The position numbers and the translations under genes were made by a program. The notes under the pieces were generated by a model. The model saw nothing but the letters and a program-made list of their open reading frames with translations. It did not search any database and was not told the DNA's origin. A stretch of DNA of 64,000 nucleotides from IMG/VR virus record IMGVR_UViG_3300045988_076196, positions 1 through 64,000 of that record. The stretch is one strand, 5' to 3'. The first letter of the stretch is position 1; every line of letters starts with the position of its first letter. Of this stretch, positions 19,299-52,398 are shown piece after piece. The DNA is from a virus.

Positions 19299-19652
19299 TT
19301 AATTTTTTCTTAGTATTTTAGCGTCAATCAGCTCTTTCTGATTAAGCCATTCCAAATCATTTTCAATATCTATCATTGCACGATTCGTTTGTTCGTCAAT
19401 CAAAAACCTATCCTTCTCATATTCGATAGTAACTCGAATTGCGCCACATTGACCAACTAATCTTGGGTCTGTCCCATAAATATAACGTAATATATTCATG
19501 TCAAATGTAATCAAAGCGTCATGCAGTTTAACATTTGTCACTACATAAGCAATATCAATTTTGTGAGCAACTTGTAATTTGAAATTCTGCGTTATAAATT
19601 CACCAAACGTCATATCACAACCACACCTTCTGATCCTGTTGAGTACATACAA
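19299..19652 (-). CDS. hypothetical protein (117 aa)
   Basis: operon strand. Confidence 0.55.
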   Translation of the reverse strand: MYVLNRIRRCGCDMTFGEFITQNFKLQVAHKIDIAYVVTNVKLHDALITFDMNILRYIYGTDPRLVGQCGAIRVTIEYEKDRFLIDEQTNRAMIDIENDLEWLNQKELIDAKILRKN

Positions 19653-21015
19653 CCCTACTTGATTTACCTTGTTTGATTAACTCATCTTGTAGGGTATTGG
19701 CAAATTCTACTTTATTTGAAAATTCACTATGTACTAAGCACAGTTTATCATAATCTATATTCTGATAATATTGCATAAGTTGGTTATAATTAGCATGAGA
19801 TGAAAACGTATTCAAACAATATATCTGAGCATTGTTCTGAATCATCTCACCATCAAGCATGATTTCTTTTGCGCCATGCTTGATTTCATATGCAAGCGTA
19901 TTAGGACTAGCATAGCCAGAGAATAGCACGGCATTGTTGTTATTGGGAAGAATGTATTTAAGATGTGCCAAAGCCCGCCCAGCATTGAGCATACCGCTAC
20001 TAGCCACTATAATGGCTCGTTCATTTGATTGCTGAATAGTTTGGCTTTCTTCCCATGATTCAATTAGCCGCAAATTGAGTTTATCTTCATAATCTAGTTG
20101 CTCTGACCATGCTCTATAGATACGACAGGCAAGCGGAGAATCAAGATAAACAGGAATCATCTGTCCGTCAATCTTTCGCTCTGTGGCTCGTGTGCGCCAT
20201 AGCACATCAAGAATGTCCTCTACACGCTGTAAGCTAAAAGCTGGCATTAAGATGCGATTATATTGGTATATAGCAGCATTGATAATCTGCTCATCATACC
20301 ATCGGTCTTTCTTCATACTATAGCATCTAGCCGGGTCACTATAAGTACATTCGCCAACCACAACATTACATCTTGGCAATGACTCGATTGGCGGTACAGA
20401 TACGCTCTTAGCCTCTGTATTAAAATCGCCCGTAAAGCCAATTCGCTTTATACTATACCCCTGTTTGATTTCTAACATTGCTTGAGCCGAATGAATGATA
20501 TGTCCGGCATGATAATACGTCAGCTTTGCACCGCCTACAATGGCCGTAGGAACACCAAACGGAACTTCGACAAGCCATTGCATCACCTTGTCAATATCAG
20601 CCTCAGTAGCTAATGGCGGCGCTTTGATACCATGTTTATTCTGCATCTTTAAGCTATCCTGCGCCATGATTTTAATACAATCATCCATCATTATCTTAAG
20701 GATGGGGATTGAGCCTTGAGGGATATAGATATATGCTTGCATGCCCATAGCAACAGCGGCAAGCAACCCAAGACAATGGTCTGCATGTAGATGAGTAATG
20801 ATAACGCCGTGCACCGTCTTTGGCTTTATTTTCCTCATCTGTTCACGGTTAGCGCGATAATCAGCTACTAGGTTATTAGTCTGAATTAGACCCATATCAA
20901 CAGCTAATTTGATATTGTCGAATCGAACAATCGTGCATGAACCGGTTACAGATGCGGCATTACCACCAATGAAATGCAGATATGGCTTAGATGTGCCAGA
21001 TGATTTAGCTGGCAT
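19615..21015 (-). CDS. metallo-beta-lactamase / beta-CASP family nuclease
   Basis: HLHADH motif (ITHLHADHCLG); about 466 aa, consistent with MBL + beta-CASP; ATG 21015 preceded by GAGGAGG. Confidence 0.8.
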   Translation of the reverse strand: MPAKSSGTSKPYLHFIGGNAASVTGSCTIVRFDNIKLAVDMGLIQTNNLVADYRANREQMRKIKPKTVHGVIITHLHADHCLGLLAAVAMGMQAYIYIPQGSIPILKIMMDDCIKIMAQDSLKMQNKHGIKAPPLATEADIDKVMQWLVEVPFGVPTAIVGGAKLTYYHAGHIIHSAQAMLEIKQGYSIKRIGFTGDFNTEAKSVSVPPIESLPRCNVVVGECTYSDPARCYSMKKDRWYDEQIINAAIYQYNRILMPAFSLQRVEDILDVLWRTRATERKIDGQMIPVYLDSPLACRIYRAWSEQLDYEDKLNLRLIESWEESQTIQQSNERAIIVASSGMLNAGRALAHLKYILPNNNNAVLFSGYASPNTLAYEIKHGAKEIMLDGEMIQNNAQIYCLNTFSSHANYNQLMQYYQNIDYDKLCLVHSEFSNKVEFANTLQDELIKQGKSSRVVCTQQDQKVWL

Positions 21016-21325
21016 TAGCCGCCTCCTCATCCTTTTTACCTGTTGGTAAATATGCCCATGCCACAACGTCATCCCAATCACCATAATTATCAAGATAATA
21101 TAAGTTATATCCAGCATATCCATCTAGCATACAAGTATCTTGCGATACATCGCCGCTTTTACCCAACACTAGAATGTCTCTATTCTCATCCGGTAATTCA
21201 CAGTCAAACATATAAAGAGGGTATTCACATTCAGATAAACCCCATTCAGCAAATCCTTCAAGTTCTTCCTCAGTGGGCGGTCTGGTTACAACCTCATGCC
21301 ATACAATTTTTTCAATCCATTCCAT
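21005..21325 (-). CDS. hypothetical acidic protein (106 aa)
   Basis: operon strand. Confidence 0.6.
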   Translation of the reverse strand: MEWIEKIVWHEVVTRPPTEEELEGFAEWGLSECEYPLYMFDCELPDENRDILVLGKSGDVSQDTCMLDGYAGYNLYYLDNYGDWDDVVAWAYLPTGKKDEEAANAS

Positions 21326-22973: not shown

Positions 22974-23813
22974 TTAAAAATTCACCACGCTCATAGCGTT
23001 GATTGCACGTTTCTCTGTGCGCTTGATATATCTGTTCGCCGTAATAGCAATTGAGCTATGGCCCATTGCCTTACTAATTACCTCAATCGGCACATCAGCC
23101 TCAGACATCATAGTAGCAAATGTACGGCGCATCGTATGATTGCTAATATGCAATTCTTCCCAATTTTCAATACCAGCTTTTCTGGCACATACTTTGAGCA
23201 TAGCACTAGTATTCTTGCCATCCATTTTATTGCCACGATTGCCAACAAACAGATATTCACAGCCATTTTTGCGCTCATTGGAAATATAATTATCAATCAG
23301 CTTAACCGTCTCATCAGACAAACCAATCAATCTATCCTTATCGCCTTTACCACGGATAACAAGTACATTACTGCTGCGAGATTCATACTGTTCAAGCGTG
23401 ATATTAAGCAATTCATAAATACGCAATCCAGTCTGTGCAAGCATCATAATAATTGCTTTATTGCGCAGATTGGTTGCAGCATTGACCATCGCTCTAACCT
23501 GTTCACCAGTCAGTGCGGATTGCTCACGATTCTTGATAGCAGGAGCTTCAAGAAATTCAGCAGGATTGCGCTGAATGAACTCGTTGCGATACAGGAATTT
23601 GAAATACTCACGAACCGCAGATGTTCTCTGAGCCACAGATGCAGAACTGAGATTGCTCATGCTGGACTGCCACAGCTCGAGGTCGATGGTCTTGATTTCA
23701 GCTTCAGGCTTATTGACATATGCCATACAATTCTCAATCGCCTTAGTATATTCCCTAATTGTGCCCTCGCTACGGTGCTTTGCCTTGAGGCTCATGATAA
23801 ACAGCTCGTTCAT
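22974..23813 (-). CDS. tyrosine recombinase (XerC/D / phage integrase family)
   Basis: GLRIYELLNI (Arg I), HTMRRTF (H-x-x-R) and GHSSIAITANRYI (catalytic Tyr). Confidence 0.85.
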   Translation of the reverse strand: MNELFIMSLKAKHRSEGTIREYTKAIENCMAYVNKPEAEIKTIDLELWQSSMSNLSSASVAQRTSAVREYFKFLYRNEFIQRNPAEFLEAPAIKNREQSALTGEQVRAMVNAATNLRNKAIIMMLAQTGLRIYELLNITLEQYESRSSNVLVIRGKGDKDRLIGLSDETVKLIDNYISNERKNGCEYLFVGNRGNKMDGKNTSAMLKVCARKAGIENWEELHISNHTMRRTFATMMSEADVPIEVISKAMGHSSIAITANRYIKRTEKRAINAMSVVNF

Positions 23814-24184: not shown

Positions 24185-24460
24185 TTACTCATTGATTTCT
24201 GCCTTCAGTGTGCTTGTTGGCTTAAACGTCAGAGCATACTTGGCAGGAACTTCAATGGTTTCACCAGTCTGCGGATTACGAGCAGTACGAGCATCGCGTA
24301 GCTTAGTTGTGAACTTGCCAAAACCATGAATCACTACATCTTCATGCTGGACTAGGCTATGTCTAATATAGTCAATAAACGTGTCTACGATTTCAGTTGT
24401 GTCCTTGACTGTATTCTCTGTGCTATCTGCTACAAACTTGATTAGTTCCTTCTTTGTCAT
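24185..24460 (-). CDS. HU/IHF-family (DNABII) DNA-binding protein
   Basis: 91 aa; GFGKF...R.ARNPQTGE.I.VPA...F motif pattern. Confidence 0.9.
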   Translation of the reverse strand: MTKKELIKFVADSTENTVKDTTEIVDTFIDYIRHSLVQHEDVVIHGFGKFTTKLRDARTARNPQTGETIEVPAKYALTFKPTSTLKAEINE

Positions 24461-24607
24461 AAATTCCTTTTAATTTCCTTTCGATTTCTAATAAAATTTT
24501 ATTAAAACAAGTCGCAATGTTCATGCGCATATTGACTTGATATATGGGGTTATTGTTCCACTATCAACTACTTACAGGGTCCTCTTACCTAAGCCCTATA
24601 TTATTTT

Positions 24608-24668
24608 GCGCCAAATTGGTTTCGTCACGACGCTATGAGACTTTAACCATTTTACTCTCTCTTTGTCT
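24608..24668 (-). ncRNA. structured RNA motif, copy A of a tandem pair
   Basis: minus sense CAGACAAAGAG, stem GAGA/TCTC, AUAG, then hairpin GCGUCG/UGGCGC with loop UGACGAAACCAAUU. Confidence 0.55.
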
Positions 24669-24730
24669 GGCACTCGTCTACCAGCTCGACACGTCATTTA
24701 TCCTTGGACTTAATGCCGATTTAGACTACT

Positions 24731-24790
24731 GTGCGGAATTGGTTTCGTCACCGCACTATGAGCCTTTGACCAAGCCTGCTCTTTGTCTGT
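24731..24790 (-). ncRNA. structured RNA motif, copy B of a tandem pair
   Basis: same architecture with compensated stems GAGC/GCUC and GUGCGG/CCGCAC and an identical 14-nt loop. Confidence 0.55.
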
Positions 24791-24859
24791 TTCCCGAATT
24801 ATTGAACAGCAGTCAACGTTGTGTGTTACGCGCGATATTCACCAACGATTTTTAGAATT

Positions 24860-24932
24860 GCCACACTCCTTACAAACCACTGTTAGCGTGAAGTTTACAG
24901 TTGCGCAACCATCTTAAAATCAAGAGTGTGGC
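24860..24932 (-). ncRNA. helix-closed RNA domain in an ORF-free transcript
   Basis: 9-bp long-range helix GCCACACUC/GAGUGUGGC enclosing about 55 nt. Confidence 0.4.
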
Positions 24933-25119
24933 GGCGTTACCTCATAGCATCAGGTGGTCAACCATCAGCTATTCAGCAACTAGCATTTTAACCTATAAAC
25001 TAGACTATCCGCAGTGACCAAATCTTGAGGATTGTCTTACAAAGCTAGGATTTTCAGCTTTTCCTCCAGACGGCTATCAAGTGTGCTTACAACGCTAGTA
25101 GAGGCATGATAGACGTTTT

Positions 25120-25192
25120 TGACCGTGGTAGGATTCGAACCTACATCTCAACCGCTATGAACGGAGAGTATTACCAATTAGGAGACGCGGCC
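25120..25192 (-). tRNA. tRNA-like element, anticodon CAU, degenerate D and anticodon stems
   Basis: acceptor 6/7 pairs, perfect T arm GUAGG-UUCGAAU-CCUAC, U8/A14/G18G19 present, CAU at positions 34-36. D stem (UCCU/AUAC) does not pair, anticodon stem has only 3 bp, and no CCA is encoded. Confidence 0.45.
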
Positions 25193-25243
25193 ATATGGAA
25201 ATGGGCTTTAAGCATCAACCCATTAGAAGCATTGTAAAGTTAT

Positions 25244-25801
25244 TTAATCAATATATTCCCATCTACATCCATGATAACTTTTTTTGCCATTCTTTTGCAT
25301 AGTTACTAACGATATGAGATTTTGGACATGCCTTGCTCTGTTATCGTTATTTGGCGAAAAATATCTAGCAGCATCTGCAAGAGAGTCAAATTCATAGATT
25401 TTTTCGTTTGTTTTCTTGTCATATCCGACAACTCTCTTGGCTTTTGTATTATATTTCCCAGTGTTACAGTATCCTAAAACGTTTCTTGCGTGGTCTGTGT
25501 TTTCTTTAGGAGTGACCCATTCAAGATTTTCTGCTCGATTGTCTGTTTTTACCCCATTGATATGGTTTACTTGATTTTTGTTTGTCGGGTCTGGATTTGA
25601 AACAAAAGTTTTTGCTATTACACTGTGAACCGACATATATTTTGGAATGCCATTCATACATAGTCCGATTATGCAATACCCACGATGATTTATAGAAAAT
25701 TTTAATGGTTTACCAGTTTTACTATAAACAACTCCGTCCGTATCACATTCATAACATTCGTACCCTTTGATTGCTATTGGTTTTCTTTGATAACTCATCA
25801 T
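25244..25801 (-). CDS. HNH homing endonuclease (NUMOD4 + HNH_3 type)
   Basis: YECDTDGVVYS N-terminal module; VNHINGVKTDNRAENLEWVTPKEN. Confidence 0.8.
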   Translation of the reverse strand: MMSYQRKPIAIKGYECYECDTDGVVYSKTGKPLKFSINHRGYCIIGLCMNGIPKYMSVHSVIAKTFVSNPDPTNKNQVNHINGVKTDNRAENLEWVTPKENTDHARNVLGYCNTGKYNTKAKRVVGYDKKTNEKIYEFDSLADAARYFSPNNDNRARHVQNLISLVTMQKNGKKSYHGCRWEYID

Positions 25802-25895: not shown

Positions 25896-25980
25896 TGGTC
25901 TGCGTGGTCGGACTCCAACCGACAAGGCTTACGCCGCCGCATTTTGAGTGCGGTATGTTTAGCAATTTCATCACACGCAG
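25896..25980 (-). tRNA. tRNA-Leu(CAA), class II, with a swapped C19:G56 elbow pair
   Basis: perfect acceptor CUGCGUG/CACGCAG, A73, encoded CCA; anticodon arm CCGCA-CUCAAAA-UGCGG; long variable arm GGC-GUAA-GCC; T loop UUGGAGU. Confidence 0.75.
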
Positions 25981-26047
25981 ATATCTATTTCAAGCCGACT
26001 TCCTGCCTCATAGCTATTTCTAGCATCGGCTCGTGAATGATGTTTAC

Positions 26048-26221
26048 ATAATATCCTTATATCACCTTTGCCGTTATGTTTTTGCATGGATACTAACGTG
26101 ACACGATTGGGCGCGACCCCAATTCTCTAGTCTGTATCTGCCGCTTCTCAAACTCTGCGCAGACCCCAGTGCAGGCGTGATATAGATTTGACGGTTATCT
26201 TCAAATCCGGTCGGATATTAT
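26048..26221 (-). ncRNA. structured RNA domain, copy 1 (174 nt)
   Basis: P1 AUAAUAUCC/GGAUAUUAU, P2 GAUUUGA-AGAUAACCG-UCAAAUC, P3 UAUAUCAC/GUGAUAUA (minus sense). Confidence 0.6.
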
Positions 26222-26365
26222 ATTGTTTGTCAATCCCAATCCCTTTCATTATGCCGAACAGATTGACCGGTGCGCCCTACTTGGCACTACGGTCTTTCGC
26301 ACGACTGCGACCCGCTTTTATGCTTATCTCATTTGTCTCACGCACGTTCCCAATGATCTTAGTAA

Positions 26366-26495
26366 ATAATATCCTTATACCAACTTCAATCTGCTAGTAG
26401 CATCTCATTATCCGTTCTTCTCCAACTCCAGGTGGGCATATGAGTAAGCGTGGTATAGGTCTAACGGTGATCTTTAGACCGCGGTCGGATATTAT
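26366..26495 (-). ncRNA. structured RNA domain, copy 2 (130 nt)
   Basis: same P1; P2 GGUCUAA-AGAUCACCG-UUAGACC; P3 UAUACC/GGUAUA; compensatory changes relative to copy 1. Confidence 0.6.
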
Positions 26496-26604
26496 GATGG
26501 CTGTTCATCTCACTCCATTTACTACTGCTCCTGTAATCCCGGCTTTATTGCTTCGCGATTGCAACGTACCTGAGCTTCGTAGCACCACCATCTTTACATT
26601 CTCA

Positions 26605-26633
26605 ATTATACCATACTTGATTTTATTTGTCAA
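26605..26633 (-). promoter_or_regulatory. sigma70-type promoter driving the ncRNA/tRNA-Leu transcript
   Basis: TTGACA 26633..26628, 17 nt, TATAAT 26610..26605. Confidence 0.7.
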
Positions 26634-26770
26634 GCATTATTTTTACAATCAGCATCCCAACAGCAACGCCAGCCACAAATAAACCTAAACAAGCAAATAA
26701 AATAATCATACACTAATAATCAATAAATTCCTCTTAACTCTTTACCCTACAACTTATACTACTTAATTGA

Positions 26771-27011: not shown

Positions 27012-27350
27012 TTACTTAAACCTCTTGGCAATCGCCTTATCAACCATTTCTTCAAAATACTTGACCACTTGAGCATCTGCATTCTTCAGCTCTGAAAAAG
27101 ACGGCGCGAGTGACTTGATTTCTTGCTTCTTGAGAATTGCGTCGCTCACCTTCTGTACTACCTTATCAATAATCTCAGCTTTGTTTTCTTTAACAATCTG
27201 ACGTGCTTCTTCTTCTGTTAAGCTGTATTTGCCTTCTGTTAATAGATTATCTGTAATTGATTTCACTATTCCATCTCTTATATCTTGCTTAAAATCATAA
27301 GAGCCATACTCTTCGTACCAGCTGTCATCAATATCAAAATATAGTCGCAT
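27012..27350 (-). CDS. hypothetical protein (112 aa)
   Basis: GAGGTG RBS; immediately downstream of the tRNA at 27382..27474. Confidence 0.6.
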   Translation of the reverse strand: MRLYFDIDDSWYEEYGSYDFKQDIRDGIVKSITDNLLTEGKYSLTEEEARQIVKENKAEIIDKVVQKVSDAILKKQEIKSLAPSFSELKNADAQVVKYFEEMVDKAIAKRFK

Positions 27351-27381: not shown

Positions 27382-27474
27382 TGGTACTGGCGCTCGGACT
27401 CGAACCGAGATTTTGCGGCAATCGACCACTAAACTGTGTATAGGACAGCTGGCTTACCATTAACCGACACCAGC
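27382..27474 (-). tRNA. class II tRNA with the non-canonical anticodon loop CCUAUAC
   Basis: acceptor GCUGGUG/CGCCAGU (2 G.U pairs), A73, encoded CCA; D arm GGUU-AAUGGUA-AGCC; T arm CUCGG-UUCGAGU-CCGAG; about 23-nt variable arm; C at position 33. Confidence 0.6.
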
Positions 27475-27573
27475 ATATTTGAGCCTTTTACCGTCATGCT
27501 CAGGACTATATTTTCAGGAGGTTCACAATGAAGAACTGTAATTGAGATTGCCCAATCTCTCAACCACATCTGT

Positions 27574-27602
27574 ATTATACCATAAGGAATACTGTTTGTC
27601 AA
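27574..27602 (-). promoter_or_regulatory. sigma70-type promoter (about 100-nt leader, then tRNA)
   Basis: TTGACA 27602..27597, 17 nt, TATAAT 27579..27574. Confidence 0.7.
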
Positions 27603-43107: not shown

Positions 43108-43251
43108 TTGTGGAGCGAAATGAGCTATAACTGGTATGTATCGGAAGATACAGAACCAGAAGTATGGGATGATGAATATGAGCCAACTGAGCGCGATTGG
43201 TCGCTTTGGATATATGGTAGTTCAGAGAATGATTTAGAGGTGATTTTTTGA
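43108..43251 (+). CDS. 47-aa acidic Trp-rich protein, translationally coupled to the RNAP gene
   Basis: AAGGAGG then TTG 43108 (or ATG 43120); stop overlaps the RNAP TTG start (TTTTGA). Confidence 0.45.
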   Translation: MWSEMSYNWYVSEDTEPEVWDDEYEPTERDWSLWIYGSSENDLEVIF

Positions 43252-45131
43252 GCCTACAGACGCAAGTTTATTTGCATTCAGTAGATACGTCATGCTTTTA
43301 TGATGACAACGAAATGACGCTACATAGACGGCTTGTTCGGTTATATTCTTTGCGTAAGCGATGGAAGGATAGTGATAAACCAGATTGGCGTATCAAGTCT
43401 GTAAATCGTTTGCTTAAAAAAGAAAAGGTGCGACTATCTGAATTGCTCGATGATGCAGTGAGACGAAATGAAACTAGAAAATTGCGTCAAGATGCTGTGA
43501 CCGATAAAACGGTTGTTAATCTATTTGAATCTGACTTAACACGCAGCTTAGGACTTGACCCGTTCAAGTTGACAGATGAGCTGTTCATCATTAACGTATT
43601 TTTCTTTCAGGTATTTAATAATCTAGTTCATCAAGGATTTATTTACAATGGTGAAAAATATGTGTTCCTTACAGCATCAGCTGGACAGATAAGAACGAAA
43701 AGAGCCGTATTCGTTAAAGAATCGTCGTTTAAGCGCATTGAGCAAAAATTGATGTGCGGCTTGACCATAGACGAAATCAATGAGCGCGGAGGCATGAATC
43801 AGAATAAATTCCTTGCATATTTGGCGCTTATGAACTCTGCCACAGATGTTTGGGAAGATTTTGATATTGACAAATCAATCGTAGTAGATGATTGGGAAAC
43901 GGCTGTTCCGGGATTGGTTGATCATATTGATGGCGTATCGTATGAGATTCGGCGCGAAATGACAGAGACGATTATTCCTCATATGGACGGATGCGGTATT
44001 ATGCTCAATGAAACAACAAGAATGGTGCGTATGCCATGGGTAAAGGGATTACTTGTTACATTTCCGTTTGATAAGTTTATCAAAGAAAAATGCGGTGGCG
44101 AGGCAACAGTAACGGATATTTATGGCAATGAGCATAAAATTATAGAGGAAGATATACGGTATATATTCACAAAAAGCCAATTCAAGCTATGGAAATTTTA
44201 TGATTCGTGGAATTGTTATAAGGCGCGATTCAAAAATTTTGGATGCAATGCTTGTTATTGCAACATAGAAGAACCGTATATTCCAAAGAGCCGCATCAAT
44301 TATCAGATGCTTCAAACCTTGAGTGATATGACTGATAATGAGATTGATCGCATTATTTCTAAGACTGCGCAAGAGATTGACGATGTTGGTAAAGATTATC
44401 AAGTTACTATGCGGTTACTTGGCGCAACAGAGAACAATCGTTATAAATCAGCTATGCAAGAGGCGTTGCTGATTTATCCTGAATTATTCAAAGATTCATA
44501 TAATCGAGAAATTCTGAAGCAGACTAAAAAGAGCCTAGTTAAACAAGCCAAAGGTGGGCGGCTTAGAGTAAATGGGAAATATTTATTCTTAGCGCCTGAC
44601 TTGTATGCGTTTTGTGAATGGCTGTTCCTAGGTGAGCAGAATCCACAGGGACTGCTTGCAGATGGTGATGTATATACTAATCAATATCGTGATGGTGATG
44701 AATTAGCTTGTTTGCGTTCTCCGCATTTGTATAGGGAATGGGCAATTCGGACAAATAGGCGTAGCTTAGAGCTTGATTATTGGTTTGGTGGAACTAAGTG
44801 TATATATACTAGTTGTCATGATTTAATAACAAGGATAGTTATGGCGGACTGCGACGGTGATAAATTATTGGTTGTAAAAGACCGAACATTGACAAATTGT
44901 GCGAAAAGGAATATGTCTGATATTTGTACTTTGGCATATGATCTCAAAAAGGCGAAGGGAGGTTTGGTAAATTCAGATAGCTTATACGAAGGAATGATTA
45001 GAGCATATACCGGTGGCAACATTGGTATTTGGAGTAATCAAATAACTAAAATTTGGAATAGCGGGAATATTACTAAGGAAGAATTGGACGTTGTAAAATG
45101 GTTGTGTTTTGAGAATAATGCAGTAATTGAT
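43248..45131 (+). CDS. YonO/RdRP-like single-subunit RNA polymerase, exon 1
   Basis: ASAGQIRTKRAVFV and the metal-binding loop MADCDGDKLLVV (DCDGD = nt 44847..44861). Confidence 0.8.
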
Positions 45132-46162
45132 TAAATGATAGTCCACTCATGCGGCAACGCATGATGTGAATGATGGTGAACTCGTAAATGCGAGGTGTGC
45201 GGAGAAATCCGTGCTAACGGTAAAACCCTAAACGTATGAACGCATGGCAATACCGTGGCAAGATTGTGTGATAAATATTAAGATGAAAGGAGGGACAATA
45301 TGAGAAAGATTAGTTTGATTGGCAAGAAATTTGGGAGATTGACGGTTTTATCTGATGCTGGAACAAAAGGTGGTAGAACATATTCTAACTGTCTATGCGA
45401 TTGTGGTAAAATGGTGGTAGTTAGTAACAAACATCTAAAAAGTGGGCATACAAAATCTTGTGGATGTTATAAAAACGAAATTATTGGCGAAATTGGTAAA
45501 ATAACCGGCAAGACAAATATCAAGTATGCGCAAAAGCAAGCACATGAAAATAATAGAAAACATGATATGTCTGGAACAAGATTGTATAGAATTTGGTTAC
45601 AGATGAAACAGAGATGTCACAACGAGAAGAACGACAGGTATCAATATTATGGCGGTAAGGGCGTTTGCGTTTGTGATGAATGGAGAGAAGATTTTCAAGA
45701 ATTTGAACAATGGTCGAATAACAATGGATATAGAGATGACTTGACCATTGATAGAATAAATTCTAATAAAAATTATGAACCGTCTAATTGTCGTTGGATA
45801 TCTCAAAGTGAAAATAGCGCAAGAATACATCGTGATGTGAGATACTGGTGTATTGATGTACAAGGCGGAAGATATGCAGAATTTGACAATATTAGAGAAT
45901 TTTGCAGAAATAATCCTGAGATCGCAAATGAGAATCATGTGAGATACGCTGTTAGCGGAAAATGTGAAAATCAAGGCGATATTATATTTGGCAAGTTTTA
46001 ATATTTTATCACACAATAAGCTGTAACGACTAGCCCATTAGGGCGTAGCTTGTAGGTGAAATTCCTACTCGCAAAGTGCCATCCATCTCTATGAGATGAA
46101 GAGATAGTCTACTCCGACTGTTTGAGCAGTGTTAAAGTATCTCGAAAGAGACGGTATGAAGG
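45132..46162 (+). mobile_element. group I-like intron carrying a homing endonuclease ORF
   Basis: exon 1 ends in U and the intron ends in G. GNRA-capped hairpins at 45148..45163, 45200..45211 and 46140..46151. A 12-bp helix (45264..45275 / 46005..46016) closes the ORF-bearing loop. Confidence 0.7.
45300..46001 (+). CDS. intron-encoded homing-endonuclease-like protein
   Basis: AAAGGAGGG RBS; CLCDCG...SGHTKSCGCYKNE; LTIDRINSNKNYEPSNCRWIS; paralog of 11837 and 12554. Confidence 0.75.
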   Translation: MRKISLIGKKFGRLTVLSDAGTKGGRTYSNCLCDCGKMVVVSNKHLKSGHTKSCGCYKNEIIGEIGKITGKTNIKYAQKQAHENNRKHDMSGTRLYRIWLQMKQRCHNEKNDRYQYYGGKGVCVCDEWREDFQEFEQWSNNNGYRDDLTIDRINSNKNYEPSNCRWISQSENSARIHRDVRYWCIDVQGGRYAEFDNIREFCRNNPEIANENHVRYAVSGKCENQGDIIFGKF

Positions 46163-50403: not shown

Positions 50404-52248
50404 ATGAAGAGTCAAATGGGAGGACTTCGTAGGAAGTTTATGTCCAACCACTTAATCACGACCGAGGCATGGTCTGGTAAAAGCAAATCGGAAGAGAAAG
50501 AGCAAAACGCAATAGAGTGGCTGACTCTTTTTTAGTTCCGTAGGAATTGGCACATATATGTAGATATGGTGCTTGGTATTAAGCTAAGGCCATTCCAGAT
50601 GGTTATGATATATTTAATGGGTATATCTCCATTCTTTTATGCAATCTGTTCTAGAGGTTTGTCAAAATCATTTATGGCTGGACTTGGAGCAATATGTAAG
50701 ATGAATCTATATCCGTATAGCGAGATTGTTATTACATCGTCTACTGTTCAACAGGCTAATAAATTAGCTGATAAAAAGATACGCGATGAAATAATTAAGA
50801 AGCTCTCAAGTTATTTGTTATACATGTACGAGCATGAGTATATAGTTATAACAAAGCCGGATGATGGTACAAAGATAGAAAATAAGTTAAATGGCTCAAC
50901 TATTGTTGTATTGCCGTGTACTGAGGCAAGCCGTGGTGAACGTGCAACACTGCTTATTTATGAAGAGGTGCGTTTGCTTAAAAAGACAATTCTTGATGCG
51001 GTCTTTGAAAAGATGCCACACCCAAGACAGGCCAAATATATGGATAATCCTGTTTATGGGAATAATAAACGATGGATTGAAGAATGCCAGCGTATCTACA
51101 TTACGTCCGCAAGATATAAATATGAATGGTTTTGGCGTTCTTTTAAGAATGTGTTCACTCAGCATTTTATAGACAAGCGCGTCAATCATAATGTTTTTGC
51201 TGGTGATATATTTATGGCAATAGATAATCGCTTAAAGACGTGGGCTGATTATCGCAAAGACAAGGCGGAGTCTGAGATGGATTGGAAAATGGAAGACCTC
51301 AACCAGATGATAGGCGAGGCTGAGGATGCGTTTTTCACATACGAGCAATTTAAGACAGCGCAAATTTTACAGCATTGTTTTAGACCTCTTACATACCTTG
51401 ATTTCTTCTCTGGTGAACAGGTTGATTTTCCAGAGAAAAAGGAAGATGAAGTGCGACTCGTTGTGGTTGACTACGCATTTTCCAACACTACTGGTTGTAC
51501 AAAGAACGACAATACCATTATTACGCTCATGTCGGCGCATTGGGATAAAAAGAAAAATCGGTTTGAACGTCATATTGATTATATAGAGGGACATGATGCT
51601 TCTGACACAATAGGCGCATCTGATAGAGCGAGATACTTATGGTGGGTATATGATGCGGATTATCTATGTCCCGATGGACGCTCTGGTGGTGAAGTTCTAT
51701 TCAATCATATGACAGAGCCATTGTCTTGGCCGGAATTAGGACTTAGGTGGAATAAGCACGGATTAGGTCTTGCAGATAAATACCAGATGGTTCCACAAGC
51801 AAAATTGGATGATTATAGAAGTCGTGTCGTTGACAAAGATGCAGTTCCAGCTATTATACCCGTGATAGGCACACCAGAGTTGAACTCTACTGGTTGGTTG
51901 TCACTGCGTAAACAGCTTGAAACTAACAATATGAAATTCCTTATTTCTATGCAAGATTATCAGAATGAGCTAACAGATAGTGGTGAATATTATAAATATA
52001 CTGCTGAAGAATTAGTTAATCAGCTTGAGCCATACGGACAGACAGATATGACAATCATAGAGGCAGTTAATCTAAAGACGGTTATTAAGCAAGATAAAAT
52101 CAAACTAGAAGAACCGCGCACAGGAACTAAGGATAGAATTGTAACCATTATGTATGGAAATTATATTATTGACTTGATTGAGAACGCATGGCAACAACAG
52201 TTACAAGAAGATGAGTTTGATGTTGATTCGATTCAATTAGTATATTAG
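50404..52248 (+). CDS. terL: terminase large subunit with an in-frame TAG at 50533..50535
   Basis: LGIKLRPFQ, Walker A-like CSRGLSKS, Walker B LLIYEE. The uninterrupted ORF is 50566..52248; the RBS (GGTGGTG) precedes ATG 50404. Confidence 0.8.
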
Positions 52249-52398
52249 TATTTGCCTATGAAGCGGTAGCTATGTTGGTGTGTTGCCGTGGAGGCACTAT
52301 TAGGGTTGTGTGGAATCCAAGTTCCAACTGAGGCTTAATCAAAAAAAGTTGAAAATAAAAACACTCAAAAAATATAAAACAAGGAAAGGAGGTTGAAG

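What the first reader, a model, noticed from the sequence alone, without database searches (positions are those of the whole stretch)
27382..27474. Class II tRNA with anticodon loop CCUAUAC (C33, UAU at 34-36, CUA offset by one)
The cloverleaf is otherwise good. It has a 7-bp acceptor stem with two G.U pairs, A73, an encoded CCA, a D arm with G18G19, a canonical T arm and a long variable arm of about 23 nt. Together these are Leu/Tyr-like class II features.

The 7-nt anticodon loop, closed by GCUGU/ACAGU, reads C-C-U-A-U-A-C. The universal U33 is therefore a C, and the nominal anticodon is UAU, which is not an anticodon normally carried by a class II tRNA. The loop contains CUA, the amber-reading triplet, shifted one position 5' of the canonical register.

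The phage also has an in-frame TAG in terL (50533). A link between the two is pure speculation, but it is testable. The gene has its own consensus promoter and a structured leader of about 100 nt.
Basis: partly seen in the sequence, partly recalled or inferred. Interest (0 to 1): 0.65.

Follow-up and report, generated by a model that had tools for sequence, protein, structure and literature searches.

The report
Phage AUA tRNA with extra arm
This is a genuine phage transfer RNA that most likely reads the rare isoleucine codon AUA, not a stop-codon suppressor, and it belongs to a widespread viral family, which I could not find described, whose extra arm imitates the anticodon arm of the ordinary isoleucine tRNA.

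Summary
The 93-nt tRNA on the minus strand (27474..27382) is real and exactly as described. ARAGORN and Rfam both call it. Across 11 distinct homologues 99% of the predicted pairs form, and 16 of 26 pairs show compensatory changes.

The amber-suppressor idea fails. UAU at positions 34-36 is invariant, whereas CUA is not: relatives carry the canonical loop CUUAUAA. The in-frame terL TAG is real and conserved, but it is present whatever tRNA the phage carries. Matched codons flank it (UUY-UAG-UUC; UAU-UAG-N-UAU with a frame change), which points to ribosome hopping.

AUA codons in this phage evolve like Ile codons, not Leu codons.

Pattern scans of IMG/VR place the gene in a family of at least 157 distinct viral tRNAs with these features:
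- a UAU anticodon;
- A73 in 94%;
- a long variable arm whose 7-nt loop centres G-A-U, sometimes exactly CUGAUAA, the tRNA-Ile(GAU) anticodon loop.

That loop is almost exclusive to UAU tRNAs (91 of 95). It is nearly absent from Leu/Ser/Tyr variable arms (3 of 280). In phage tRNA arrays the long UAU tRNA fills the AUA slot.

C33 recurs in several lineages of the family, and A38 is often lost.

Best reading: an AUA-decoding tRNA-Ile whose extra arm may supply IleRS identity. That last step is inferred.

The parts
27574..27602 (-). Sigma-70-type promoter: TTGACA, 17 nt with a TG extension, TATAAT
   Evidence: 12 of 12 consensus match. Conserved in all gut-phage copies, and also ahead of a different tRNA (L001) and ahead of no tRNA (L004).
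27475..27567 (-). Conserved non-coding leader of about 93 nt, with a 10-bp hairpin and a CCUCC tract
   Evidence: Nearly identical in all copies despite mosaic flanks. A 1-nt indel excludes coding. No Rfam match at E <= 5.
27382..27474 (-). 93-nt tRNA(UAU) with a long variable arm, A73 and an encoded CCA
   Evidence: ARAGORN, Rfam at 45.6 bits, covariation in all arms that vary.
27438..27444 (-). Anticodon loop C32-C33-U34-A35-U36-A37-C38; the anticodon UAU is at 27442..27440
   Evidence: Read. C32, U34, A35, U36 and A37 are invariant in 11 homologues; positions 33 (C/U) and 38 (C/A) vary.
27410..27432 (-). Variable region UUA-GUGG-UCGAUUG-CCGC-AAAAU. The hairpin is at 27429..27415, with G-A-U at 27423..27421 in the centre of its loop.
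   Evidence: Stem covaries. GAU and the 3' AAAU are invariant. The same Y-N-G-A-U-N-N loop occurs in 70 of 75 and 157 pooled viral relatives.

Best explanation
The gene encodes a functional phage tRNA that decodes AUA as isoleucine.

**Expression (inferred from the layout).**
- It is transcribed from a strong early promoter as leader-tRNA-mRNA.
- RNase P and a 3' nuclease would cut it out.

**Role.** It gives the phage an AUA decoder that does not depend on the host's lysidine-modified tRNA-Ile2.

**Family (shown).** It belongs to a widespread viral family in which the UAU-anticodon tRNA always carries an extra (variable) arm. The 7-nt loop of that arm presents G-A-U, the anticodon of the major tRNA-Ile, in the anticodon position.

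**Proposed function of the arm (inferred, not shown).**
- The arm is a recognition or identity element, most simply for isoleucyl-tRNA synthetase.
- That enzyme reads G34/L34-A35-U36 and handles U34 poorly.
- With identity supplied elsewhere, the real anticodon loop is freer to change. Hence the recurrent loss of A38 (the t6A determinant) across the family.
- The same freedom would explain C33 in this clade and in several others.
- These changes may limit U.G misreading of AUG, or protect against host enzymes that target the anticodon loop.

**Status of each step.**
- Shown: the structure, the invariance of UAU and GAU, the family, and AUA = Ile.
- Inferred: charging by IleRS, the role of the arm, and the benefit of C33/C38.
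For: **Structure and covariation.**

**Invariant UAU, variable 33/38.** Canonical CUUAUAA occurs in relatives L012, L034 and L037.

**AUA behaves as an Ile codon.**
- Window ATA sites are replaced in relatives by I 0.33, V 0.21, L 0.14. This matches ATT and ATC sites.
- Leu codons give L 0.53-0.74.

**Same slot, different tRNA.** The same promoter and leader carry a class I tRNA(UAU) in L001.

**IleRS nearby in a distant relative.** A distant homologue on a 436-kb viral contig lies 4.5 kb from an IleRS gene (TIGR00392, 722.9 bits).

**The wider family.**
- A scan that did not constrain the variable arm gave 75 distinct long UAU tRNAs. 70 have a Y-N-G-A-U-N-N loop, on 30 different stems.
- A scan anchored on CAGAUUA gave 95 tRNAs, 91 with anticodon UAU.
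- The control of 280 Leu/Ser/Tyr tRNAs had GAU in the V-loop in 3.
- A73 occurs in 148 of 157.
- In 53 phage tRNA arrays the long UAU tRNA occurs alone and never alongside a short UAU tRNA; 35 arrays also hold tRNA-Ile(GAU).
- A cultured jumbo phage, Phosso, has one annotated tRNA-Ile(tat).

**C33 recurs.** CCUAUAC or CCUAUAA occurs in at least 5 other lineages.

**Literature.**
- E. coli IleRS is poor on UAU, t6A37 aids IleRS, and UAU misreads AUG (PMC3575796).
- A38 is required for t6A (PMC13276492).
Against: - No aminoacylation or expression data exist.
- A variable arm cannot sit where the anticodon arm sits on IleRS without an unusual binding mode or an alternative fold, so the mimic idea has a geometric problem.
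- The window clade lacks U33 and A38. Both normally help decoding, and in E. coli A38 and t6A37 help Ile charging.
- Only one of the E. coli minor Ile determinants is present: U12.G23 is there, but C4-G69 and C29-G41 are not (sequence compared with PMC9976931).
- The IleRS next to the distant homologue has Trp at the E. coli W905 site. This is not the Arg that adapts M. mobile IleRS to UAU. That fits the mimic idea but does not show that UAU is recognised.
- The codon test shows what AUA means in these phages. It does not show which tRNA reads it.
- Known V-arm tRNAs with UAU anticodons are charged with Leu (nev-tRNA). The allo-tRNA-UAU variants that were tested, after conversion to a CUA anticodon, gave no Ser/Ala suppression, and their authors suggest they are not used in translation.
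Confidence: 0.62

Rival explanations
1. The tRNA-shaped RNA is not used in translation. It could be a decoy or sponge for a host enzyme that recognises tRNA-Ile anticodon loops, such as a nuclease or a toxin. It could also be a processing signal that separates the conserved leader from the downstream mRNA.
For: - C33 and C38 remove two near-universal features of ANN decoders (PMC13276492).
- The phage group carries several irregular tRNA-like genes.
- The leader module also occurs without a tRNA.
- Six allo-tRNA-UAU variants converted to CUA did not suppress a Ser146TAG reporter, and Mukai et al. suggest most such tRNAs are not used for translation (PMC5389517).
- Phage tRNAs are proposed to counter anticodon nucleases (PMC10264068).
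Against: - All tertiary-fold nucleotides, A73 and CCA are kept.
- The anticodon UAU is invariant across at least 157 members.
- In arrays the long UAU tRNA sits in the AUA slot, one per array, and excludes a short UAU tRNA.
- A pure processing signal would not need a fixed anticodon.
Confidence: 0.17
2. Like the nematode nev-tRNA-Ile(UAU), the tRNA is charged by LeuRS. LeuRS ignores the anticodon and needs A73 and the core fold. The tRNA would then insert Leu at AUA.
For: A73, A14, an A15-U48 type pair and a long arm are present. The precedent is PMC3333845.
Against: - AUA sites exchange mainly with AUU and AUC. Their replacement profile is that of Ile codons, not Leu codons.
- The D arm is of the class I type.
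- The conserved GAU loop has no role in this model.
Confidence: 0.06
3. It is an amber suppressor that uses C33-U34-A35 in a shifted register and reads the in-frame TAG of terL.
For: CUA is present in the window's loop. terL has a conserved in-frame TAG.
Against: - CUA is absent from relatives with CUUAUAA loops, while UAU is invariant.
- The TAG persists with a canonical-loop tRNA, with a different tRNA and with no tRNA.
- The 7-nt variants UAU-UAG-N-UAU change frame.
- TAG is an ordinary stop for 6 genes.
Confidence: 0.01
4. It is a decaying tRNA pseudogene whose loop mutations are neutral damage.
For: Loss of U33 and A38.
Against: - Compensatory changes maintain every stem between clades that share the CCUAUAC loop.
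- The variant dominates the population, with about 40 of 46 copies.
- It recurs in unrelated lineages.
Confidence: 0.03

Closest known systems
allo-tRNA-UAU group (Mukai et al. 2017, PMC5389517)
   Same: Long variable arm combined with a UAU anticodon, found in metagenomes. One large sub-lineage of the viral family found here has the allo-like D arm (4-bp stem with the tetraloop UGGU) and a long anticodon stem. The two sets may overlap.
   Different: - allo-tRNAs are defined by an 8/4 or 9/3 acceptor/T branch and G73 or U73, with presumed Ser or Ala identity.
- The window tRNA is 7/5 (pair 49-65 covaries), has A73 and has a class I type D arm.
- The GAU loop, the link to phage tRNA arrays and an Ile reading are not described in the main text, which is all that was held.
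- I could not compare sequences because the supplement is not held.
Nematode nev-tRNA-Ile(UAU) (PMC3333845, PMC4300185)
   Same: A V-arm-bearing tRNA with a UAU anticodon and A73.
   Different: nev-tRNAs are eukaryotic nuclear genes, charged with Leu in vitro. Here AUA evolves as Ile, and the arm carries a conserved GAU loop.
Bacterial tRNA-Ile2(UAU), as in Mycoplasma mobile and a B. subtilis tilS-deletion suppressor (PMC3575796, PMC3919564)
   Same: An unmodified-type UAU anticodon that reads AUA without lysidine.
   Different: Those are class I tRNAs with U33 and 36-UAA-38 (t6A37), and they rely on an adapted IleRS or ribosome. The phage tRNA has an extra arm and, in this clade, C33 and C38.
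Phage tRNAs with anticodon-loop changes proposed to escape host anticodon nucleases (PMC10264068)
   Same: A phage-encoded tRNA whose anticodon loop departs from the host-type consensus at positions that flank the anticodon.
   Different: No nuclease that targets tRNA-Ile is known for this host. That work does not describe C33 or an extra arm.

Membership tests
Elongator tRNA (Rfam RF00005) | 7/5 cloverleaf supported by covariation | tested here: met
   45.6 bits against a gathering score of 29. 99.3% of cells pair and 16 of 26 pairs are compensatory.
Elongator tRNA (Rfam RF00005) | Core tertiary nucleotides (U8, A14, G18G19, U54-U55-C56, A58), a discriminator and CCA | tested here: met
   Read from the sequence. 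Invariant in homologues.
Elongator tRNA (Rfam RF00005) | U33 before the anticodon | tested here: not met
   C33 in the window and most gut-phage copies. U33 in L012, L034 and L037.
Amber suppressor tRNA | CUA at positions 34-36 | tested here: not met
   Positions 34-36 are UAU in a 7-nt loop fixed by a covarying 5-bp stem. CUA is not conserved.
Amber suppressor tRNA | Co-occurrence with in-frame TAG codons that need reading | tested here: not met
   The only in-frame TAG backed by homology is the one in terL, and it occurs regardless of tRNA type.
Class II tRNA (Leu/Ser/Tyr) | Base-paired variable arm longer than 10 nt | tested here: met
   23-nt region with a covarying stem.
Class II tRNA (Leu/Ser/Tyr) | Anticodon and codon meaning of Leu, Ser or Tyr | tested here: not met
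   The anticodon is UAU. AUA sites evolve like Ile codons.
allo-tRNA (Mukai 2017) | 8/4 or 9/3 acceptor/T-stem branch | tested here: not met
   7/5. Pair 49-65 is C-G in 10 sequences and G-C in 1. U8 cannot pair in L037.
allo-tRNA (Mukai 2017) | G73 or U73, and a tRNA-Sec-like D arm (long stem, tetraloop) | tested here: not met
   A73, with a 4-bp D stem and a 7-nt loop. Other sub-lineages of the viral family do have the tetraloop D arm.
nev-tRNA-Ile(UAU) | Charged with leucine | not testable with these tools
   Indirect only: the AUA replacement profile is Ile-like, not Leu-like.
Bacterial tRNA-Ile2(UAU) | Class I body with 36-UAA-38 (t6A37) | tested here: not met
   Long arm, and U36-A37-C38 in the window. 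Relatives of types C and E have UAA.
Viral long-arm tRNA(UAU) with a GAU loop (family delimited here) | UAU anticodon plus a variable-arm hairpin with the 7-nt loop Y-N-G-A-U-N-N | tested here: met
   Window loop UCGAUUG on stem GUGG/CCGC. The closest architecture is L103.
Viral long-arm tRNA(UAU) with a GAU loop (family delimited here) | A73, and sole UAU tRNA of the phage | tested here: met
   A73 (148 of 157 in the family). ARAGORN finds no other UAU tRNA in the 64-kb window.

The most novel reading that the evidence does not exclude
The variable arm is a natural anticodon-arm mimic. Isoleucyl-tRNA synthetase, or another Ile-specific factor, reads the G-A-U of the extra arm, while the ribosome reads the UAU of the real anticodon arm. 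Aminoacylation identity and decoding would then sit on two separate arms of one tRNA. This would explain three observations:
- the arm is tied to the UAU anticodon;
- half of the family has lost the A38/t6A determinant;
- U33 itself could be replaced several times independently.
Probability: 0.28. Interest if true: 0.88.

Novelty: new variant of a known kind. Interest (0 to 1): 0.7.

Why it matters
- **AUA decoding.** Reading AUA without misreading AUG is a classic problem. It is usually solved by lysidine or agmatidine, or by an adapted IleRS and ribosome. A large viral tRNA family that pairs a UAU anticodon with a conserved GAU-bearing extra arm would be a further, portable solution.
- **Identity rules.** If the arm supplies Ile identity, this would be a natural case of tRNA identity placed outside the anticodon for an anticodon-reading synthetase. 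That would be useful for engineering orthogonal tRNAs.
- **U33.** A tRNA family under clear structural selection has replaced U33 repeatedly. This gives a natural system for asking what U33 is really needed for.
- **Annotation.** Automatic pipelines already label these genes tRNA-Ile(tat) without comment, as in phage Phosso. I found no description of the architecture in the literature I could search.

Tried and rejected
- **BLAST of the window tRNA region against cultured phages.** No match, in near and distant modes. Two other family queries also gave none.
- **Exact anticodon-arm pattern in IMG/VR.** No hit.
- **Strict V-arm pattern.** It returned only known members.
- **8/4 allo-type fold.** Rejected. 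U8.G65 is possible in the gut clade but not in L037, and pair 49-65 covaries.
- **Register shifted 3', giving anticodon AUA (Tyr-like, which would suit A73 and the long arm).** Rejected. The covarying 5-bp stem fixes the 7-nt loop. A class I tRNA(UAU) replaces this gene in L001, and the family sits in the AUA slot of arrays.
- **attP or integration-site remnant.** Rejected. The gene is full length with its own promoter. The integrase at 22974..23813 is 3.6 kb away. No copy was found in 185,579 representative genomes.
- **Leader as a small ORF (57 codons running into the tRNA).** Rejected because of a 1-nt indel among homologues.
- **Genome-wide TAG recoding.** Rejected.
- **Arg at the E. coli W905 site of the jumbo-phage IleRS.** Not found; the residue is Trp.
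- **MFE folding of the tRNA and leader.** Not significant against shuffles (z = -1.6 and -0.7). The case for structure rests on covariation, not on energy.
- **Supplement of Mukai 2017.** Not held, so allo-tRNA-UAU sequences could not be compared.

Full report
**1. Observation.**
- The feature lies on the minus strand. ARAGORN calls a 93-nt tRNA at 27382-27474 with anticodon tat. Rfam's tRNA model gives 45.6 bits against a gathering score of 29.
- Read 5'->3', the RNA is GCUGGUG-UC-GGUU-AAUGGUA-AGCC-A-GCUGU-CCUAUAC-ACAGU-[UUA GUGG UCGAUUG CCGC AAAAU]-CUCGG-UUCGAGU-CCGAG-CGCCAGU-A-CCA.
- A perfect TTGACA-17(TG)-TATAAT promoter lies at 27602..27574. It is one of five such promoters on this strand between 24 and 31.5 kb. 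A leader of about 93 nt follows it.
- There is no terminator after the tRNA. The next ORF (27350..27012) starts 31 nt downstream.

**2. The phage.**
- The window is from an SPbeta-like phage of about 90-97 kb, with G+C about 38%.
- The nearest cultured relatives by TerL are Enterocloster phages (47% amino-acid identity). SPbeta is more distant.
- It encodes a YonO-like RNA polymerase, replication proteins, a beta-CASP RNase and a tyrosine recombinase.
- Related contigs come from IMG/VR and ENA metagenome assemblies; one record title (L040) names a human gut metagenome.

**3. Close homologues.**
- I collected about 46 copies using a neighbouring protein and an 18-nt D-arm pattern. They reduce to 11 distinct sequences.
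- One of these is a distant 90-nt homologue on a 436-kb viral contig (L037 = L068).
- On that alignment the cloverleaf, including the variable stem, pairs in 99.3% of cells. 16 of 26 pairs show changes on both sides. No shuffle reaches this, and slid controls give 34-47%.
- Pair 49-65 covaries, so the branch is 7/5, not 8/4.
- In the anticodon loop C32, U34, A35, U36 and A37 are invariant. Only positions 33 (C or U) and 38 (C or A) vary.
- The loops seen are CCUAUAC (window type and the majority type, on different covarying stems), CCUAUAA (L052) and the canonical CUUAUAA (L012/L017, L034, L037).
- The conserved triplet is therefore UAU, not CUA. C33 is not a sequencing error.

**4. The terL TAG.**
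The terL frame is open from ATG 50404, and PMBT24 TerL aligns across TAG 50533. The window is two codons longer at that point.
- The TAG is conserved in at least 16 related contigs, with synonymous changes around it.
- The variants are UUU/UUC-UAG-UUC (window, L070, L071), UUC-UAG-UUA (the majority), and UAU-UAG-C/G-UAU with a +1 frame change (L082, L083).
- More distant relatives lack the 6 nt.
- Matched codons on both sides of a stop, plus a 7-nt version that changes frame, point to peptidyl-tRNA re-pairing (a short hop), not suppression.
- Short bypass blocks in a phage terminase gene have a proposed precedent in Streptomyces phage Hau3 (PMC10732093).
- The TAG is present in three informative contigs: the one whose tRNA has the canonical loop (L070 with L012), one with a different class I tRNA(UAU) (L074 with L001), and one with no tRNA behind the leader (L077 with L004).
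- TAG also terminates 6 of 64 genes. Treating it as sense yields no other homology-supported fusion. The link to the tRNA is refuted.

**5. What AUA means.**
- AUA makes up 14.9 per 1000 codons and 21% of Ile codons. Usage is the same in early and late genes.
- I aligned window genes codon by codon with related loci.
- ATA sites are replaced mainly by ATT and ATC. The replacement profile is I 0.33, V 0.21, L 0.14, like that of ATT and ATC sites.
- Leu codons give L 0.53-0.74. There is no sign of Leu, Ser or Tyr recoding.

**6. The wider family. This was the unexpected result.**
It gave 75 distinct tRNA(UAU) of 87-96 nt with very different acceptor, D and T arms.
  - 70 of these have a variable-arm hairpin with a 7-nt loop Y-N-G-A-U-N-N.
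  - The loops include CAGAUUA (36), CAGAUAA, UAGAUAA, UAGAUUG and CUGAUAA, the last being the exact tRNA-Ile(GAU) anticodon loop.
  - They sit on 30 different 3-5-bp stems.
  - Read this way, the window's arm is UUA-GUGG-UCGAUUG-CCGC-AAAAU.
- *Reverse test.* Anchoring on CAGAUUA before a T loop, with no constraint on the anticodon, gave 95 distinct tRNAs. 91 have anticodon UAU.
  - In that sample A38 is absent in about half (CUUAUAC 28, CUUAUAU 7, UUUAUAC 6, UUUAUAU 5).
- *C33 scan.* C33 loops turned up in at least five further unrelated lineages.
- *Pooled.* There are 157 distinct members. A73 occurs in 148 and CCA is encoded in 105.
- *Control.* Among 280 distinct Leu/Ser/Tyr tRNAs from the same loci, only 3 have GAU in the variable-arm loop.
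- *Arrays.* In 53 loci with at least 10 tRNAs the long UAU tRNA occurs alone and never alongside a short UAU tRNA. 35 of these loci also hold a class I tRNA-Ile(GAU). It fills the AUA slot.
- *Cultured example.* The jumbo Sinorhizobium phage Phosso carries a member annotated simply tRNA-Ile(tat).

**7. Mechanism.**
- Shown: a structurally constrained tRNA with an invariant UAU, an invariant GAU in an anticodon-like extra loop, A73, and an Ile meaning for AUA.
- Established knowledge:
  - Bacterial IleRS relies on the anticodon, A73 and t6A37 (PMC9976931).
  - E. coli IleRS is poor on UAU, and UAU misreads AUG on E. coli ribosomes (PMC3575796).
  - t6A needs 36-UAA-38, and U33 supports the U-turn (PMC13276492).
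- Inference: the phage needs an AUA decoder that works without TilS. The extra arm offers the Ile-specific G-A-U (with C32 and A38 equivalents, but without U33 or A37, so it is not itself a decoding loop or a t6A substrate).
  - With identity provided there, positions 33 and 38 of the real loop can change.
  - Such changes could limit U.G wobble or evade host enzymes that target the loop (PMC10264068).
- The IleRS beside the distant homologue has Trp at the E. coli W905 site, the type that prefers G34/L34. This is compatible with the idea but is not evidence for it.
- The geometric difficulty is real: a variable arm does not sit where the anticodon arm sits. I therefore give the mimic step about 0.3.

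**8. Comparison with known systems.**
- The gene works like a tRNA-Ile2(UAU), but it is not class I and lacks the t6A motif.
- It resembles nev-tRNA-Ile(UAU) and allo-tRNA-UAU in combining a long arm with UAU. It fails their defining features: Leu charging is not supported, and it is 7/5 rather than 8/4 or 9/3, with A73 rather than G73 or U73.
- One sub-lineage of the family has the allo-like D arm. Mukai's abundant allo-tRNA-UAU, whose CUA-converted variants did not suppress a Ser146TAG reporter, may therefore be part of the same family. I could not check this.
- I found no paper describing the GAU loop or the family.

**9. The leader.**
- The promoter and leader form a conserved module in mosaic flanks. 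The module precedes this tRNA, a different tRNA(UAU) (L001) or no tRNA (L004).
- It is non-coding (it carries an indel) and matches no Rfam family. Its function is open.

**10. Verdict.**
- The gene is a member of a widespread viral tRNA-Ile(UAU) family with an anticodon-mimicking extra arm, which I could not find described.
- C33 is a recurrent derived state in that family.

Noticed in passing
window 50404-52248 (+); TAG at 50533-50535: terL is interrupted by a conserved in-frame TAG flanked by matched codons: UUU-UAG-UUC here, UUC-UAG-UUA in the majority, and UAU-UAG-N-UAU with a +1 frame change in L082 and L083. Uninterrupted relatives are 6 nt shorter. This looks like a programmed short ribosome hop, comparable to the bypass blocks proposed for Streptomyces phage Hau3 terminase.
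   Followed up: yes
window 27475-27602 (-); L001:4483-4620; L004:3114-3260: The promoter plus a leader of about 93 nt form a highly conserved, non-coding module. It occurs in mosaic contexts, ahead of this tRNA, ahead of a different class I tRNA(UAU), or directly ahead of an mRNA. It contains a 10-bp hairpin and an anti-Shine-Dalgarno-like CCUCC tract. It matches no Rfam family.
   Followed up: partly
window 25120-25192 (-): A sub-threshold tRNA-like gene (23.6 bits) with loop UUCAUAG (CAU anticodon, G38) and a degenerate D arm. ARAGORN calls tRNA-Met(cat) with the same UUCAUAG loop (G38) at a similar position in L005 and L010, and a third (loop not examined) in L007. This is another ANN-type loop without A38.
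   Followed up: partly
window 24460-25244 and 25981-26770 (-): Two ORF-free stretches of about 0.8 kb lie downstream of strong promoters. They contain internal direct repeats, for example AUCCGACCG...CACGC twice and CAGACAAAGAG...GUGACGAAACCAAUU twice. They are probably structured non-coding RNAs. In relative L003 the corresponding place holds a RAGATH-33 RNA (139.9 bits).
   Followed up: no
window 25896-25980 (-): tRNA-Leu(CAA) has no G18G19. Its D loop reads AAAUUGCUAAA and its T loop UUGGAGU. This suggests that the elbow pair G19-C56 has been swapped to C19-G56. An HNH endonuclease gene (25244..25801) follows it.
   Followed up: no
window 52253-52369 (+): A drum RNA (Rfam RF02958, 49.7 bits) lies immediately after the terL stop codon.
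   Followed up: no
window 43248-45134 (+), 19615-21123 (-), 22974-23813 (-): Three genes of note: a YonO-like single-subunit RNA polymerase (RdRP fold) at the start of the late, plus-strand block; a beta-CASP/RMMBL ribonuclease (RNase J-like) that could process the phage's many small RNAs; and a tyrosine recombinase.
   Followed up: no
L041, L053, L028, L066 (unrelated metagenome contigs with dense tRNA arrays): C32-C33 loops also occur in otherwise good tRNAs of other specificities: Pro-UGG, Val-UAC, Val-CAC, Ala-UGC and Arg-GCG. Replacement of U33 may therefore be a wider habit of array or mobile-element tRNAs.
   Followed up: partly
L037:4063-4159 and L037:8275-11061: The 436-kb viral contig carrying the distant homologue also has a 97-nt tRNA-like gene, for which ARAGORN reports a 4-nt anticodon (uaac) and a long arm. 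It also carries its own IleRS (TIGR00392).
   Followed up: partly
L009:5942-6015, L011:6514-6587, L052:7826-7899, L008:6179-6252: Related gut phages carry 74-nt tRNA-like genes with 8-bp acceptor stems, mismatched anticodon stems and loops UUUAUUC or UUUGUUC, which have a pyrimidine at position 37. These are unlikely to be normal decoders.
   Followed up: no
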